This document shows positions 23,756 to 55,853 of a DNA stretch of 64,000 nt, one piece after another; positions within the stretch are counted from its first letter, which is position 1, and the number at the start of each line of letters is the position of its first letter. The position numbers were made by a program, and so were the translations under genes. The stretch covers positions 78,988,001-79,052,000 of the forward strand of contig NC_043004.1 in assembly GCF_006345805.1 (NCBI RefSeq). The letters run 5' to 3'. The notes under the pieces are model-generated. The model was given only the letters and a program-made list of their open reading frames with translations, made no database searches and had not been told where the DNA came from. The stretch comes from Octopus sinensis (taxonomy: Eukaryota).

Positions 23756-25125
<1,370 letters not shown>

Positions 25126-25272
25126 TATTGTATATTATTATTAATACTAGAGTCGATGTAATCGACTTAATACCTCCCCCCCCCAAGTTGTCCTTGTGGT
25201 AAAATTATTATTATTATTATTATTATCATTATTATTATTATCATTATTATCTTTATTATTATTATTATCATT

Positions 25273-26395: not shown

Positions 26396-26857
26396 CCCCT
26401 TATGCGTATTTATTATTACACTGCCCATTGTTTCATTCCATTTCTAATGCTGAGTCTTGAAGCTGAAAGAGATTTGGTTGCTATTAATTATTAGTTGAGT
26501 AACAATGTAGACAAATGATCTCACGTTGCTCCTTCCTGTGCAGCGGGGTCTCTGACAAGAAAAGCCTATTAAAAATCACATGTATACAAGTCTATTAGTT
26601 TTGGGTAACTGCTATAGACACGATTTTATCAGTATGCTATCGCAGGGAGATTTCTTTTTCTATTGCATGTTACCGAAACTCCCGTAGCGTTTCACTGTTG
26701 ACATGTATACCATAGATTTGCTATCACTGCTCTAAAGAAAACATTTAAATTCTTTACTGGCTAAGGCAGATAATAAAATACCAAATCTACAGTGTTACCA
26801 ATAAGCATTTAAAAGTAAAAATAAAAGGTTCTATATTTAAGAAACGAGGAATTATGT

Positions 26858-26903
26858 AGCACAACGTTTCGATTAATATACCCTCCAGCCTTCTTCGGGT
26901 GTT
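26858..26903 (-). ncRNA. Degenerate hammerhead copy in the inverted 5' pLTR
   Basis: Reverse complement reads aacac-CCGAAGA-a-ggctg...taatc-GAAAC-gtt-gtgct; the core U4 position and stem II are mutated. Confidence 0.6.
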
Positions 26904-28930
26904 TTTGGAGGGAAATTTCCTAAGGTATTTTTCGATGTTGTTGTTATTATTATTATTATTCAGGTCACTGCCTGGAAGCGAACTCGGAATCTTGGGGTTA
27001 CTAGCCCACGCTCTTAACCACTACGCCATATGCCCGTGGGCAATTATGGAGTGGATTTTAGGGCTTATAAATCTAATATTCTCCTATCCTTCCTTAATAC
27101 CGGTTCACCAAACATCACTAACGATGAAACGTTCGCTAGCAAAAGACTACAGAGTGATAATTACATCATAATACTTCCAGCAGACAAGGGAAATGCTACA
27201 GTGGTGATTCGGAAAAACTGGCAAGTCTTATAAGTGATGGTAGCTACAGCAAAGTAAAGAAAGACCCTACTTCGAAAACAGAGAGGGCGTTGTCACAAAG
27301 CTTGATCAAGAAGAAGGATCACTTTACACCAATGAAGTACAGACAACTGACTCAACACTACCGTAAACTACCACACATATACAGTCTTCCTAAGATTCAC
27401 AAGGTTGGTATTCTATTAAGACCTATAGTGAGCTGTAGAGATTCAGCATGTCACCCACTGAGCCGATTCCTTGTGGATATAATCAGTCCATTAGCAGGAA
27501 AGTCAACATTGTATGTGAAGAATTCCACCCACTTCACAGAATTGATCAAGGATTCTCCCATTGAATCCAACCAGATGGTGAGTCTAGATGTGATAAGTCT
27601 GTTCACCAAAGTCCCAACTGGTGAAGCACTATCGGTGATTCAAGAAAAACTAGTGACAGACACCCATCTAAAAGTAGCACTAGTATACCAATAAGAAACT
27701 TGGTGGAAATTTTGACCTGTGTAGAAACTACCAACTTCAGTATGGACACTGATATATATCGACAAGAGGGATTAGCTATGAGTTCGCCATTATCACCGAT
27801 AAGAGCCAATATATATAGAATACTTTGAGAATTTGGCTTTAGGATCAGCATCACTAGAACCAACCCTATGTCTGCGATATGTTGATAACACCTTCATACT
27901 CTGGCCCTACAAGGAAGATGTTCAAGTGCTGTTAGATCATGTGAACTTAATAACGCCATCCATACAGTTCACCTTGGAAAAAGAAAAAGACAATCAGCAG
28001 CATTCCTAGACGTATTAATAATGCGTACCAAGTATGGATTCAGGACATCCTTATATCGCAAGCCGACCTTAACTGGACGATACCTCAACTTCAACTCCCG
28101 CCATCCATACAGTGTAAAGAGAGGGATTGCTCATTGCCTAAAACATCGAGCAATGAATATAAGTAGCGATCGTGATACCCACCACGAAGAAATGATCAAG
28201 CTCAGTAACAATCTATTAAGCAACAACTACCTCAAAAGCATACTCTCCATCCAATTAGGGAGAGAAGAGAAGATGAAACCGATAAACTGTCCACAGTCTG
28301 TCTACCCTATGTGAAAGGCCTCTTTGAAAAGATACAAAAATTATGCAGCCCATATGACATCAGGACACTATTCAAGAGTAATACAACACTTCGCAAATAT
28401 CTCCTTCGAGTAAAACCACCAATAGAAGAGAATATGACCAAAGACTGCGTGTACTCCATCCCATGCAGTTGTGGTAGGTTATACAAATGTGAAACATGCC
28501 GTCCCCTTAAAATAAGGGTAGAAGAATATCGCAAAGCTGTGACACGAAGAGATATTGATAAATCGGGTATAGCTGATCCTGTATGGAAAAATGGAAACCA
28601 CCATCGCCTGTGGGGTGAAGTTAAAATAATAGACAGAGAACACCACTGGAAAATACGAAAACTAAAAGAAGCAGCACATACGCTAGGACACAACAACCTC
28701 CTAAGCAGACCGGGAGCAGATATGAACAGCATATGGGAACCGGTATTAAGGAAGGATAGGAGGATATTGGATTTATAAGCCCTAAAATTCACTCCAAATT
28801 GGCCCAAGAGCATAGAGTATAGTGGTTAAGAGTGCGACCTACTAACCCAAAGATTTCGAGTTCGATTCCAGGCAGTGACCTGAATGATATTAATAATAAT
28901 AATACCATAGGCTTGAAATTTCCCCCAAAA

Positions 28931-28976
28931 AACACCTGATGAAGGCTGGAGGGTATATCAGCTGAAACGTTGTGTT
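28931..28976 (+). ncRNA. Minimal type I hammerhead ribozyme in the Penelope 3' pLTR
   Basis: Stem I aacac/gtgtt; CTGATGA at 28936; stem II ggctg/cagct; GAAAC at 28964; GTT cleavage triplet; palindromic stem III AACGTT. Confidence 0.8.
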
Positions 28977-29607
28977 AACAACAAACAAGATGAGGGCAAA
29001 TATCCGTCCATTGCAAATAATGTAAATAAAAATAAAAGGCATCATATGAAATAATTAATTTTTTTTAATAGATACATAGAACACAAACACACACACATAT
29101 ACACGCACACACATACACACACACACACACCCACACACACACACATATATATAGATATATAATATATAATATATATATATATATATTATATATGCGTCTA
29201 TATGTGTGTTATATATATATATATATATATATATAATGTCGCCATGATAGATCGGTAGCCACTACACACATTTATTTTCTCTCTTTGTTTCTCTCCTTGT
29301 TTTTTTCTGTCTCCCTTTCTGTAGAAGGGCGTAGGCTCGAAGCGTACAAGACTTTTTCAATTCCTGAGCGTTATACTAATCCATCTATTTGTTTTGTACA
29401 CCACCTGTCTTCGTCTTTTGCGTTTTTTTTTCGTGAACTCTCCCTCTCTCTCTCTATATATATATTTATATATATATATACACTGCTTACCAGCCAAATA
29501 GTTCCGGGTTCAGTCTACTATAGCCTCGGGCCGACCAAAATCTTGTGAGTGGATTTGGTAGACGGAAACTGAAAGAACCCCGTCGTATATATCTATCTAT
29601 ATATCTA

Positions 29608-29804: not shown

Positions 29805-29896
29805 ATATATGTATGTATGTATCTATGTTATATATTATATATATATATATATATGTATGATATATTATATGTATGTATATATATATATAATCTACT

Positions 29897-30067
29897 ACTT
29901 TGATACTTTGATACTTTGATAGGTTTCGGCCATTATTGGCCCATACTTAATAGCACCACCTGGTAAATAGCACCACTATATATATATTCACCAGGTGGTG
30001 CTATTAAGTTAGACATGGCCTGGGCCAATAAGGCCGAAACCTATCAAAGTATCAAAGTATCAAAGTA
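29897..30067. mobile_element. Two inverted short 3' ends of the CR1/L2-group LINE
   Basis: Minus copy about 29897-29965 and plus copy about 29988-30067, each carrying the tatcaaag tail. Confidence 0.8.
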
Positions 30068-30073
30068 TATATA

Positions 30074-30168
<95 letters not shown>

Positions 30169-30170
<2 letters not shown>

Positions 30171-31634
30171 CTTTGATACTTTGATACTTTGATAGGTTTC
30201 GGCCTTATTGGCCCAGGCATGTCTAACTTAATGCACCACTGGTGAAGTCTTTCAAGTCAGAATTTGGGCACTATGGCCCCCTCAGTAGAAGTTATTGTTT
30301 ACAGGACATATCCGGGTGTGGGGTTTATCCGGGATTTCTTGAAGGAATCTGTCCAAAGACTTCTTGAACCCTATAGGGTCAGTTTCTGTTTTAATGCGTT
30401 TTGGTGTAATGTTAAGAGAGCGGGGCCATTGATGAAATATTGTGCCGTATTGTTGTTATGAGATGAGAGTGCGATTTTGTTTTTTGGGCGGATGGCACGG
30501 GGCCCAAGCTTGGATGTACCTTAAAGTGATGCCAACCTCATTGGGCAATGCTGGTGGAATATTTTCCACATCATGCAGATGATGTAGCGCTCCCGACGAC
30601 GTTGGAGAAATAGAGTTTAGCTTTCTAGTCGACCCCAATAGTCGAGCCTGTCATGCCATCTATCTTTTTTGGATTGCCCTTTGAGGTGCTTCGAACTTTT
30701 GATACCTTGTTTGTGTGGGGAGACCCAGTGGACAACAGTTTCAAGGTGGGGTCGGGCAAGGTGGAGAAGAGAAGGATAATGGTGTGGATATCTCTCGACT
30801 GGAAAGTTCTGAGAATCCAGGAACATTCTGCGGCATGTCAACTTGGTGTTTATATGAGTGGCCCAGCTTACGTTGTTTGTCACAATTACTCCCAAGTCTC
30901 TGATGTTGTTGGACGCCGTGAGAGTTTCACCTGAAGGAAGGGAGTATGGGAGTTTCAGGGCTCCTCTTTTCCAAAGTGGATTAGCTCAAATTTACCTCGT
31001 TCAGCAGCATATTGTTTTTTCTGCCCATTGGATACAGCCAGTAGATCTGACTGAAGGCATGTCCGGTCACTCGCCTCATTTTGACCTTCTGTAGCTTGGA
31101 GTCATCTGCAAAGATTTTTATGTTGCTGTGGCTTGTGATGTCATTAATGTCATTAATGTAAATGATGAAAAGAAGTGGGCCCAGCCAGTGCCTTGCGGAA
31201 CGCCACTACTGACTTTGGCTGGGCTTGATTTTACCCCTTCAACTACAACATGTGAGATCTGTCTGTCAGGAAACACTTAATCCATTTCAGTAACTTTCCT
31301 GAGACACCAAGTTGGATAGTTTTTTCAATAGGATCTTGTGATCGCCCTTCGATAGGCCTTACTAAATCAAGGTAGATGACAATCGGTGTTGGAGCCCTCT
31401 CCCAAAGCTCTCAAAATGTCCTCAAAGTGATGCAGGACTGCGTTAGGCAGTCCCTTCCATTACGGACCCATGTTGGTTGGAGATCAGCCGTCTGTTGCTT
31501 TCCAGAAATTGGGTTATTTGAGATCTCACCACCCTCTCAAATACCTTGATGATATGAGAGGTGAGTGAGATCGGACGGTAATTCACTGAAGGGACTTTTT
31601 CCCTTTTGAAACTGGGACAACAGACTGGGACAGA
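30169..31634 (-). mobile_element. CR1/L2-group LINE, 5'-truncated RT region and 3' UTR
   Basis: Minus-strand RT motifs (SGVPQG..GPLLFIIYINDI, FADDSKL), C-terminal DYWGRLE, and a 3' tail of (TATCAAAG)n. Many frameshifts; flanked by (TA)n. Confidence 0.85.
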
Positions 31635-38697: not shown

Positions 38698-39071
38698 CTC
38701 AAATTTCTACACTGACTGAAACCCGCCTCTCAATTTCGTCTGCATCAAAGTCCTTTAGAAGAAATCTCTAATTCAACAAATACGATAAATCGATTTCAGT
38801 GAATTATTACCTCATACATCCAGGATAATTAAATCAATAATCTATACAAAATTCATTAACACATTGAACTCATAAGTGTATATTAATCTATACTAATATA
38901 TTGTAGACATTAATATACTAAATTCATTACTCTATGCTAATCTGTATTAATGTATTGAATTCATTATTTACATTAATGCGTATTAATATCTTAAACTCAG
39001 AAATCCGTATTGATTTATAGTTATTAAACTCATTAATCTATCTAACAACCCATCTATCTATCTATCTATCT

Positions 39072-40032
39072 GTCGACGAGGAGTACCTGACCCGCCTGTT
39101 CGGGACGACTTTCGGGCCAGGGCCCATGGACAACTTCCAGAGATCCCTGGCCTGGCAGTGCTACGAGAAGCGCTACCCGTTCGGGTAAAGCTCTACAGAC
39201 ACGGCTCGAGAAACACGGGGCCGACCTGCCCGAGATGCGGTCAGAGCGACGAAACCGTTCTGCACGCACTCGTTCAGTGTCCAACAATTCCGACCTGTGG
39301 GCTTATGTCGAACAAACTGCTGTCACGTGTGGGACGAGTCGGTTTATCAGCTGAGTCTATCGTCATATTGTCACGCCTCCTTCCTTCAAACACGGAAGGA
39401 AGAGCTATTTTCATCATCCTTGTGGCTATGGCGAAAGAATGTATCTGGTGGGACGCGTCTGAAGGATTGGAGACAAACACTTTCCTCTCTGGTCAATCTC
39501 TCATCAACTTCTTCAAGTACCACTTGAAAAGGAAAGTGACGAGTAGAGAGGAAGTTTTGTCTAGCGATGTTTTAAAAAAGATGGGTGAATGTAGCAAGAA
39601 TGGCACGTATGAATGACGAAGCCACTTGAGATAGTCCTATGAACCCAGAAATCGAAAACAGAGGTTGCTTATTTGCAAAAAAAAAAAAAAAAAAAAAAAA
39701 GAATATAAAATGTGACTCATGACCGAGTTACCGTGGTTTTTCCGCAGGCTTTTTCTTTCCACGGGTAAACCTCACCTGTCCTCCCCTTTACACTTCATAT
39801 TGAATTTCTGTGATAACGATCCCTATTGATCATTTTTTTCTCTCCCCCCCGACTTTTTTTTTTTTTTTTTTTTTTTAACCCCCCTTATTTTGTCCTCTTT
39901 CTCTCCTTTACGATCCCTTTTGATCGAACCTTCCCCTTCCCTTTTTTTTTTTTTTTTTAATACCTTCAAAAGAAAAGCTCTACCTTGTAATTTGTTCTAT
40001 CTGTGTGCAGCCCTGTGTGGCTAATAAAGAAA
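39072..40032 (+). mobile_element. Tx1/L1-clade LINE 3' fragment
   Basis: zf-RVT-like ALPVRVKL..CPRCGQSDETVLHALVQCP; T-rich 3' UTR ending ggctaataaagaaa; flanked by (TATC)n. Confidence 0.8.
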
Positions 40033-40060
40033 TATATCTATCTATCTATCTATCTATCTA

Positions 40061-40850
40061 AGCTCTACATGCACGACTCGAGAAACACGAGGCCGACCTG
40101 CTCGAGATGCGGTCAGAGCGAAGAAATCGTTCTGCACGCACTCGTGCAGTGTCCAACAATTTCCGACCTGTGGGCTTATGTCGAAAGACTGCTGTCACTT
40201 GTGGGACGAGTCGGTTTATCAGCCGAGTCTGTCGTCAATATTTTCACGCCTCCTTCCTTCAAATGGGAAGGAAGAGCTATTTTCATCATTCTTGTGGCTA
40301 TGGCGAAAGAATGTATCTGGTGAACGCGTCTGAAAGGATTGGAGACAAACACTTTCCTCTCTGGTCAATCTCTCATCAACTTCTTCAAGTATCACTTGAA
40401 AAGGAAAGTGAGAGTAGAGAGACAAGTTTTGTCTAGCGAATGTTTCATAAAAAGATGGGTGAATGTAGCAAGGATGAATGAGGAATCCACTTTGAGCATA
40501 ATCCTACGAACCCGGAAAAAATTAAAATAGAGGGTTACCTACTTGCAAACAAATGTGGTAACATGTAACATTATTGACCGAGGTTACCGTGGTCTTTTCC
40601 GTAGGCTTTTCTTTCCACGGATAAACCCTATCTGCTTCCCCCTTTACACTTTACATCATGACATTTCTGTGATACACGATCCATATTGATTGTTTTTTTC
40701 TTTTTCTTTTTTCCTTTTCCTTTTTTTCTTTCCCTTTTACGATCCCTTTTGATCGAAAACCTACCCCACTTTTTTTTCTCTCCAAAAAGAAATGCTCTAC
40801 TTTGTAATTTGTCCCGTCTGTGTGCAGCCCTGTGTGGCTAATAAAGAAAC
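40061..40850 (+). mobile_element. Second Tx1/L1-clade LINE 3' fragment, tandem to the first
   Basis: CSRCGQSEEIVLHALVQCP; same 3' end ccctgtgtggctaataaagaaa; (TATC)n on both sides. Confidence 0.8.
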
Positions 40851-53966: not shown

Positions 53967-54656
53967 AAATGTTAAACAATTCTTCGTCTTTAAACATTAG
54001 GTTAATAGATAAAAATAAGTGTAATTCTTTTTATTATTTAGTAGATATTTTTTATGTTTTTTAATCTGGGAGGGGTGGGATTTTTAATTACAAATAGAAA
54101 TACGTGGTCGGAAAAGGAAAATAAGTTGTTTTTTCTACATCTGAATATTATCAATAGTAAATCTCTGACCGAGATGTAAACAGTAACTGCACGACAATGT
54201 AAAGTATACTAGCCATCTCAATATGGCTAACCACTAAGGGTGGGTGTTACTGTAGCTTGTAGCCCCAGGAGATCATCGTCTACAGCTGGCTTTAGGCACA
54301 CAAAGGGATGTCCTCCCTTTCCAAATACCATAAGGGCACAGAAAGTGTGCCTAAAGCCAGCTGGAGATGATGATCTCCTGTGGCTACAAGCTACAGTAAC
54401 ACCCACCGTTAGTGGTTAGCCATATTGAGATGACTAGTATACTTTACATTGAATATTATCATAATATAGAAATACATTATAATCCGTTTAATGTGCGTAC
54501 GTACATACGTGCATATTTGCATATTTGTATATTCTATCAATATACAATATCTATAGAAATAGATATTTCTGCACATTGCGAACCATATTAATTCTCTATG
54601 TATATATTCTCTCTATCTATCTACCCCCTCTCTCTCACTCATCTCTATATATAGTG

Positions 54657-54835
54657 AAGGCGCATGGCTTAGTGGTTAAGGTGTTGCACTCACGATTACA
54701 AAATCGTGGGTCCGATTCCCAGGCCGGGCGTTGCGTTGTGTTCTTGAGCAAAGCACTTCATTTCACGTTGCTCTGCGATCATTTCTTCATCCGGTGACGT
54801 ATGTTGTACCTGTACAGGTAATGTAGGAGAGTCCA
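54657..54835 (+). mobile_element. CORE-like SINE, duplicated in inverted form at about 55306-55485
   Basis: gaaggcgcatggcttagtggtt..ttgtgttcttgagcaaagcac. Confidence 0.8.
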
Positions 54836-54836
54836 T

Positions 54837-54915
<79 letters not shown>

Positions 54916-55050: not shown

Positions 55051-55166
55051 ATATCACCTGAGGAAATATAACTAGGTCCTATTATACAGGTAAACAGTTA
55101 CTTAATTTAAATTTAAATCCAGCATTTATGTGAATCTAAGTTGTGTCGAAACACGTGTAGTGATAT
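55051..55166 (+). ncRNA. Type I hammerhead ribozyme motif with long stem II
   Basis: Stem I ATATCAC (55051-57)/GTGATAT (55160-66); CTGAGGA at 55058; atataact/agttgtgt stem II base; GAAAC at 55148; palindromic ACACGTGT stem III; GTA triplet. Confidence 0.78.
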
Positions 55167-55257: not shown

Positions 55258-55304
<47 letters not shown>

Positions 55305-55812
55305 ATGGACTCTCCTACATTACCTGTACAGGTACAACATACGTCACCGGATGAAGAAATGATCGCAGAGCAACGTGAAATGAAGTGCTTTGCTCAAGAA
55401 CACAACGCAACGCCCGGCCTGGGAATCGGACCCACGATTTTGTAATCGTGAGTGCAACACCTTAACCACTAAGCCATGCGCCTTCACTATATATAGAGAT
55501 GAGTGAGAGAGAGGGGGTAGATAGATAGAGAGAAATATATACATAGAGAATTAATATGGTTCGCAATGTGCAGAAATATCTATTTCTATAGATATTGTAT
55601 ATTGATAGAATATACAAATATGCAAATATGCACGTATGTACGTACGCACATTAAACGGATTATAATGTATTTCTATATTATGATAATATTCAATGTAAAG
55701 TATACTAGTCATCTCAATATGGCTAACCACTAACGGTGGGTGTTACTGTAGCTTGTAGCCACAGGAGATCATCGTCTCCAGCTAGCTTTAGGCACACTTT
55801 CTATGCACTTAT

Positions 55813-55853
<41 letters not shown>

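What the first reader, a model, noticed from the sequence alone, without database searches (positions are those of the whole stretch)
28809..28976. Penelope pLTR contains a tRNA-like Pol III cassette directly upstream of its hammerhead
Seen: in both pLTR copies (28809-28880 plus; 26963-27035 minus), just after the ORF stop, there is a tRNA-like segment. In the minus copy it has A-box TGGCGTAGTGG, an anticodon-like hairpin GGG-CTAGTAA-CCC (AGT, Thr-like) and B-box GAGTTCGCTTCC. An (AAT)n linker and the hammerhead follow. Presence in both copies shows it belonged to the element before insertion. Inference: a PLE that captured a tRNA/SINE head as an internal Pol III promoter, able to produce short tRNA-hammerhead RNAs (SINE/retrozyme hybrid). 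I do not recall this as a standard PLE feature.
Basis: partly seen in the sequence, partly recalled or inferred. Interest (0 to 1): 0.72.

Follow-up and report, generated by a model that had tools for sequence, protein, structure and literature searches.

The report
Octopus Penelope retroelement with tRNA-like cassette
An abundant octopus jumping gene of the Penelope type carries a decayed tRNA-like segment just ahead of its predicted self-cutting RNA motif, and this segment likely acted as a start signal for short protein-free copies of the element, an arrangement I did not find described.

Summary
One decayed Penelope-like insertion (26829-29026, 13-bp target duplication) has two pLTR arms. 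Each carries a 73-nt tRNA-like segment with A and B boxes at tRNA spacing, an (AAT)n linker and a minimal type I hammerhead motif.

The 'Thr' label fails: the right copy reads ACT, not AGT, and the cloverleaf is broken. The host is Octopus-like.

Reads from four runs (four organism labels) show the ORF-end-to-cassette link is the family form. The one displayed joint that skips the whole cassette is at single-copy depth. Depth rises 1.9-3.4-fold across the head, and in 3 of 4 runs the loose ends there read as a fold-back centred on a small palindrome at tRNA +1. This suggests many ORF-less, head-to-head copies that start at the head.

Pol III transcription is not shown: the RNA run has both directions about equal and no start peak. 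The palindrome alone could explain the junctions.

Precedents exist (schistosome Sm-alpha, a tRNA-SINE with a hammerhead; Helenus/TRIMp3; retrozymes as PLE derivatives). Ten paper searches found no such cassette inside a coding PLE's pLTR. Repbase and Dfam could not be checked. Verdict: new variant of a known kind.

The parts
26816..26828 (+). left target-site duplication (13 bp, identical to 29027-29039)
   Evidence: 7 of 5000 flank shuffles share 13 or more letters
26829..26856 (-). about 28-nt PLE 'tail' extension, present only on the inverted arm
   Evidence: by eye it matches the loose-end letters behind 29024/29029; one-sided tails described in PMC8557442 and PMC11167929
26858..26903 (-). 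decayed minimal type I hammerhead (core mutated, helix II damaged)
26938..26960 (-). (AAT)n/(AAC)n linker, left arm
   Evidence: sequence
26963..27035 (-). tRNA-like cassette, left copy: A box 27028-27018 intact, B box 26983-26974 with one mismatch; closest to the family majority
27031..27042 (-). small palindrome (5-bp arms, 2-nt centre) straddling tRNA +1; centre of the fold-back junction seen in other copies
   Evidence: loose ends compared by eye
27036..27106 (-). ORF end and 3' UTR start on the inverted arm; inversion junction at 27106/27107
27107..28778 (+). 5'-truncated, frameshifted RT + GIY-YIG-type ORF, Penelope/Poseidon-like; stop codon 28776-28778
   Evidence: tblastn with relative P0098 covers its residues 17-578 in four pieces at 47-69% identity; named hits are Octopus
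28808..28880 (+). tRNA-like cassette, right copy: starts after a 29-nt gap behind the stop; A box decayed, B box 28860-28869 perfect
28883..28904 (+). (AAT)n linker, right arm
   Evidence: sequence
28931..28976 (+). minimal type I hammerhead: core 28936-28942, unpaired A, helix II, GAAA 28964-28967, palindromic helix III remnant; predicted cut 28971/28972
   Evidence: matches the min-HHR description in PMC4209133
28977..29026 (+). 3' end of the right pLTR
   Evidence: depth falls to background after about 29030 in all four runs
29027..29039 (+). right target-site duplication

Best explanation
An octopus Penelope-like retrotransposon family carries, as a family trait, a decayed tRNA-like segment with correctly spaced A and B boxes between its stop codon and its predicted hammerhead, and this segment likely entered once as a tRNA or simple-SINE insertion and likely served as a Pol III promoter for short ORF-less RNAs that the element's own enzyme would copy back into the genome. 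Shown: the anatomy, the single insertion with target duplication, the family-wide ORF-cassette link in four organism labels, and broken stems beside good boxes. Inferred: a Pol III RNA of about 220-280 nt would run from the head through linker, hammerhead and tail, with no T4 stop in between, and would keep the 3' region where PLE reverse transcription starts. The cDNA would end in the small palindrome at +1, so it could fold back or anneal to a twin cDNA and give symmetric head-to-head copies. Long RNAs would give asymmetric inversions such as the one at 27106/27107. The hammerhead is predicted to need a dimer or protein help. This copy is dead.
For:: all 30 bins are covered in 4 of 4 runs. 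All 7 displayed majority letters between 28763 and 28856 equal the left copy's letter (checked by eye), including the first base of the A box (330 of 341 RNA reads). Per-site depth from 28769 to 28856 rises x1.9, x2.8, x3.4 and x2.1, against x1.5, x1.4, x2.3 and x1.2 over the preceding 300 bp. Loose ends before 28819/28820 match the reverse complement of the head better than the ORF-linked flank (by eye: 15/17 vs 6/17 in X23, 14/16 vs 8/16 in X11, 11/16 vs 7/16 in X1). One single-copy tandem joint restarts at the head. Boxes are good while the T and anticodon stems are broken. No T4 run lies between 28800 and 29058. PLE promoters lie in the pLTR (PMC2377424). Sm-alpha is a precedent for a Pol III promoter plus hammerhead.
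Against: There is no direct sign of Pol III RNA: in X23 both directions are about equal (705 vs 751 over the B box) and no start or end peak falls at the head or the cut (table 6). Depth rises again by x2.4-3.5 in 3 of 4 runs between cassette and 3' end (x0.83 in X1), so a step is not special to the head. The tool warns that contig depth is no copy number, and this copy's divergence distorts it. Only 24 of 2481 loose-end rows and 15 of 192 joints were shown. Agreement in the X1 and X11 rows is 0.56, the X23 row (0.9) may be one expressed locus, and X4 shows no fold-back row. The absence of T4 is uninformative, since the whole sense strand is T-poor (P=0.21). Good boxes with broken stems could be inherited from an earlier life as a SINE.
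Confidence: 0.5

Rival explanations
1. Passive passenger. A tRNA or SINE piece landed in the 3' UTR of the founder element and was amplified without working as a promoter. Head-to-head copies arise because the palindrome is a template-switch or annealing hotspot on ordinary long RNA, and the depth step is mostly 5' truncation.
For: Inverted 5'-truncated arms are standard in PLEs (PMC8557442). The palindrome is the one place where two identical cDNAs can pair symmetrically (inference). Depth also climbs 3' of the cassette, and the RNA run shows no start peak.
Against: The palindrome is centred 1-2 nt from tRNA +1, and one tandem joint also restarts at the head. The step over 87 bp exceeds the rise over the 300 bp before it in 4 of 4 runs. 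The family majority restores the A box.
Confidence: 0.3
2. Reverse order. A PLE-dependent SINE (tRNA head fused to the PLE hammerhead and 3' end) arose first, and a coding element later acquired it by inserting next to it or recombining with it.
For: Short 3' classes appear more abundant than ORF-linked ones. The lizard PLE enzyme cuts an ATT motif in its own pLTR (PMC11167929), which favours such tandems. One single-copy contig in X1 and X4 joins the ORF end to the hammerhead with 25 other letters and no cassette.
Against: No abundant cassette-less ORF class appears among the displayed joints. The single joint can be a local deletion with filler. No outgroup DNA was obtained.
Confidence: 0.1
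3. The cassette is the promoter for the full-length downstream unit in tandem arrays, that is, a coding PLE transcribed by Pol III.
For: It sits where the pLTR promoter is expected. The sense strand has few T runs: T3+ 9 observed vs 18.2 expected by letter shuffle (P=0.002), and one T4 run in 1920 nt.
Against: The depletion weakens when dinucleotides are kept (T3+ P=0.056, T4+ P=0.22). Pol III RNAs are uncapped and short-ranged (established knowledge; processivity argument in PMC10886601).
Confidence: 0.07
4. Ordinary SINE insertion confined to this copy or a few copies.
For: The window is full of tRNA-headed SINEs (11 profile matches).
Against: The cassette lacks the body of those SINEs (match ends at profile position 66 of 78). 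Family reads in 4 of 4 runs carry it linked to the ORF end.
Confidence: 0.03

Closest known systems
Canonical EN+ Penelope-like elements, Penelope/Poseidon clade (PMC4209133, PMC8557442, PMC11167929)
   Same: RT then C-terminal GIY-YIG-type domain, inverted 5' pLTR, one-sided tail, minimal type I hammerhead with unpaired base before helix II and palindromic helix III, AT-rich target with duplication.
   Different: Carries a 73-nt tRNA-like A/B-box cassette in the pLTR. None is mentioned in the texts I read; the studied Drosophila promoter is described as TATA-less and LINE-like (PMC2377424).
Schistosoma Sm-alpha/Sj-alpha SINE-like elements (via PMC2770079, PMC6765202)
   Same: tRNA-related, apparently Pol III-transcribed repeat with a type I hammerhead.
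   Different: Sm-alpha is ORF-less and tRNA-Gln-related, and no coding parent with the same cassette is described in those passages. Here the cassette is part of a coding PLE.
Animal non-LTR retrozymes (PMC7229834; bioRxiv 10.64898/2026.07.22.740005)
   Same: Short hammerhead-bearing units proposed to derive from PLE pLTRs.
   Different: Defined as head-to-tail tandem repeats; the preprint has 0 hits for 'tRNA' or 'promoter'. Here the likely short form is head-to-head and tRNA-headed.
TRIMp3: Helenus, Ajax, Cassandra (PMC10886601)
   Same: Small-RNA-derived Pol III-type promoter inside a terminal repeat, proposed to arise by SINE insertion.
   Different: Non-autonomous LTR elements with PBS/PPT, no hammerhead, no PLE enzyme.
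tRNA-headed SINEs of this window (15184, 26394, 47082, 54658)
   Same: Same 45-nt box spacing; profile match E=2.7e-5.
   Different: The similarity stops just after the B box; different body.

Membership tests
EN+ Penelope-like element | RT followed by C-terminal GIY-YIG-type endonuclease in one ORF | tested here: met
   Relative P0098 (precomputed RVT_1) maps collinearly over 27108-28760. The endonuclease is read from its motif with two cysteines inside; Pfam gave no hit on the window pieces.
EN+ Penelope-like element | pLTR arms, one-sided tail, target duplication | tested here: met
EN+ Penelope-like element | Hammerhead motif in the pLTR | tested here: met
   (own descriptor); Rfam models give no match
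Penelope/Poseidon clade | No extra Zn-finger in the RT-EN linker; placement on an RT tree | tested here: inconclusive
   No such motif by eye in P0098 (definition); no tree with named references was built
Functional tRNA gene | Cloverleaf detected by ARAGORN or Rfam | tested here: not met
   stems broken
tRNA-derived Pol III (type 2) promoter | A and B boxes at tRNA spacing | tested here: met
tRNA-derived Pol III (type 2) promoter | Transcription by Pol III | not testable with these tools
   One ordinary RNA-Seq run: both directions about equal, no start peak
SINE mobilised by a PLE | Many dispersed ORF-less copies starting at the head | tested here: inconclusive
   Depth step and fold-back loose ends; no genome held to count copies
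Non-LTR retrozyme | Head-to-tail tandem units with two active hammerheads, circular RNA | tested here: inconclusive
   This locus is not tandem; one single-copy tandem joint of the cassette; circles not testable

The most novel reading that the evidence does not exclude
A coding Penelope-like element has a tRNA-derived Pol III promoter built into its pLTR and from it throws off an abundant family of ORF-less, head-to-head 'tRNA-hammerhead-tail' copies: a SINE mobilised by a PLE, caught together with its parent, and a model for how Sm-alpha-type elements and tRNA-bearing PLE parasites arise.
Probability: 0.3. Interest if true: 0.75.

Novelty: new variant of a known kind. Interest (0 to 1): 0.55.

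Why it matters
How PLEs are transcribed, and what mobilises hammerhead-bearing short repeats such as Sm-alpha and retrozymes, are open questions. A family in which tRNA-like promoter, hammerhead, RT-start region and enzyme sit in one element makes the PLE-SINE link directly testable, by counting copy ends in an octopus assembly and by in vitro Pol III and RT assays. PLEs are 6.83% of the O. vulgaris genome (PMC13282606 supplement), so a mis-sorted short derivative could be a visible part of its unclassified repeats. If the cassette is only a passenger, this is a modest annotation detail.

Tried and rejected
No genome was held, so no copy count or family alignment could be made.

ARAGORN at default found 0 genes; lowered thresholds gave mostly noise, and the visible ps80 list did not include the cassette. 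Rfam found no tRNA or hammerhead. Single-strand folds were not distinguishable from shuffles for the cassette (z -0.29 and 0.50). My first box pattern missed both cassette copies and was replaced.

Blastn of the cassette against phages found no match, so the isotype is unassigned. A resemblance to tRNA-Arg is recalled only. The hammerhead pattern found 0 matches in three prokaryotic, viral and metagenomic collections, and a protein alignment found no confirmed loci there; no outgroup 3' UTR was obtained. The PDB search gave only distant RTs.

No RNA holder was listed, which says nothing about expression. Terminator absence was rejected as evidence. 'Thr' was rejected. My early note that the tail is at the right end was wrong; it is on the left arm.

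Earlier-findings look-ups by sequence, place and two word sets were empty.

Full report
Observation. Numbered as a tRNA, the left copy has an A box at 8-18 with no mismatch and a B box at 53-62 with one mismatch to a recalled consensus; 0 of 2000 shuffles of that arm did as well. The right copy has a decayed A box and a perfect B box; on the loose test I ran it is not convincing alone (129 of 2000). A sequence profile from four unrelated SINE heads of the window finds the left cassette at E=2.7e-5 and the right at E=0.014, ending just after the B box. So the cassette is tRNA-head-like but not a copy of those SINEs.

It is not a working tRNA. ARAGORN and Rfam are blank. In the left copy the T and anticodon stems pair at 3 of 5, and the D and acceptor stems pair only with a one-base shift (3 of 4, 5 of 7). 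The anticodon is AGT on the left and ACT on the right, so 'Thr' is not a property of the element. The hammerhead at 28931-28976 has the features that Cervera and de la Pena give for PLE minimal hammerheads (PMC4209133). It is the only such motif my descriptor found in the window, against 0 in 100 shuffled windows. The left one is mutated in the core.

The element. A relative from an unnamed ENA record (P0098) maps over 27108-28760 in four frame-shifted pieces. The two hits among 97 that bear a source name are Octopus sinensis and O. vulgaris. A perfect 13-bp duplication (26816-26828, 29027-29039; 7 of 5000 shuffles) brackets both arms, so they come from one insertion. The left arm ends in about 28 nt that match, by eye, the letters that family reads carry beyond the right end: the one-sided PLE tail. 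This is the usual PLE layout of inverted 5' arm, truncated ORF and 3' pLTR (PMC8557442).

Is the cassette a family trait? No genome was held. One search listed 24 runs; 20 hold part of the stretch, under four organism labels. I laid 4 of the 24, one per label (three contig sets, one raw RNA run), on 27900-29060 at 80% likeness. All 30 bins are covered in all four. The 7 displayed majority letters between 28763 and 28856 all equal the left copy (40 of 210 rows shown), including the first A-box base (330 of 341 RNA reads), and displayed loose ends spell the intact head. Among 15 of 192 joints shown, one same-strand joint skips the whole cassette (28756 to 28931), in one contig each of X1 and X4 at single-copy depth.

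Short copies. Per-site depth rises x1.9, x2.8, x3.4 and x2.1 from 28769 to 28856, against x1.5, x1.4, x2.3 and x1.2 over the 300 bp before. Loose ends before 28819/28820 fit the reverse complement of the head (window 27019-27035) better than the ORF-linked flank: 15/17 vs 6/17 (X23, 331 reads), 14/16 vs 8/16 (X11, 55 contigs), 11/16 vs 7/16 (X1, 69 contigs), compared by eye. X4 shows no such row. The fold is centred on a palindrome with 5-bp arms that straddles +1 (27031-27042). One single-copy joint repeats the cassette from the head.

Results against this reading. Depth rises again x2.4-3.5 toward the 3' end in 3 of 4 runs. Contig depth is not a copy number. Only 24 of 2481 loose-end rows were shown, agreement is 0.56 in two of the three rows, and the RNA row may be one locus. 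The RNA run shows both directions about equally and no peak of starts or ends at the head or the predicted cut. An ordinary library would not be expected to show one, and none was seen at the cut in the lizard element either (PMC11167929).

Mechanism. Shown: anatomy, family-wide link, good boxes with broken stems. Inferred (about 0.5): the cassette came in once as a tRNA or simple SINE and worked as a Pol III promoter. The RNA would meet no T4 run before the element's end and would keep the region where PLE reverse transcription starts; the lizard enzyme cuts and extends both strands and starts at two sites that bound the tail. A cDNA ending in the palindrome could fold back or pair with its twin to give symmetric head-to-head copies. 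The main rival (0.3) is a passive passenger whose palindrome is a junction hotspot on long RNA. The (AAT)n linker may be a SINE tail or the element's own cut site, since the lizard enzyme prefers ATT in its pLTR. Pol III transcription of the whole ORF is a long shot: T3+ runs are depleted against letter shuffles (9 vs 18.2, P=0.002) but only weakly against dinucleotide shuffles (P=0.056).

Comparison with print. Sm-alpha is a tRNA-Gln-related SINE with a hammerhead, apparently Pol III-transcribed (passages of PMC2770079 and PMC6765202; original papers not seen). Helenus has tRNA-like sequence in LTRs (PMC10886601: abstract, passages, Discussion). A 2026 preprint derives animal retrozymes from pLTRs and has no hit for 'tRNA' or 'promoter' (part 1 of 5 and passages; its supplements are closed).

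Other papers seen: PMC4209133 parts 1-2 of 4 and a supplement search with one file unsearched; PMC11167929 parts 1-2 of 4; PMC8557442 passages, Introduction and supplement search, 0 hits for two window motifs; PMC2377424 abstract and Discussion; PMC13282606 part 1 of 3, passages and supplement, 0 hits for 'hammerhead'; passages of PMC7229834, PMC8967140, PMC6962438 and PMC8490949. Ten searches listed nothing on a tRNA-like cassette in a coding PLE's pLTR. Repbase, Dfam, the O. vulgaris library, Ohshima and Okada 1994 (reference line only) and Lunse et al. 2017 (not held) were not seen and could already hold this family. Three earlier, unchecked findings of this scan describe ORF-less tRNA-bearing PLE-type units without hammerheads in other genomes; they are leads only.

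Verdict. A real, family-wide feature and a new variant of a known kind. Interest 0.55, rising to about 0.75 if head-start copies and Pol III use are confirmed.

Noticed in passing
window 54325-54876 and 55265-55817: 553-bp inverted repeat, 98.2% identical, each arm holding the same tRNA-headed SINE; may be a recent fold-back duplication or an assembly artefact.
   Followed up: partly
window about 55052-55165 (+): Second, unrelated type I hammerhead-like motif between those arms, with palindromic loop III and an insert of roughly 70 nt in helix II; no tRNA-like head just upstream by eye; too long for my descriptor.
   Followed up: no
window 28905-28932 (spacer): Family reads carry a longer spacer before the hammerhead that includes a second B-box-like motif (loose ends before 28929/28932). 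Both window arms appear by eye to lack part of it, with different breakpoints.
   Followed up: partly
window 15184, 22978, 26394, 37811, 47082, 3901: Further tRNA-headed SINE copies of one class; for 15184, 47082, 54658 and 26394 the A-to-B spacing is 45 nt.
   Followed up: partly
window 23844-25146: 426-bp unit repeated about three times, two copies 100% identical over 300 bp, containing SINE pieces.
   Followed up: no
window 39014-40430: LINE 3' fragment with zf-RVT, apparently present twice about 900 bp apart.
   Followed up: no
window 29880-30240: Short inverted-repeat structure with (TACTTTGA)n/(TATCAAAG)n units around a (TA)n run; possibly a MITE or satellite.
   Followed up: no
proteins P0001-P0106: A large family of related PLE proteins at about 60-69% identity lies on long unnamed ENA contigs; their 3' UTRs would be the natural outgroup but no DNA could be fetched.
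   Followed up: partly
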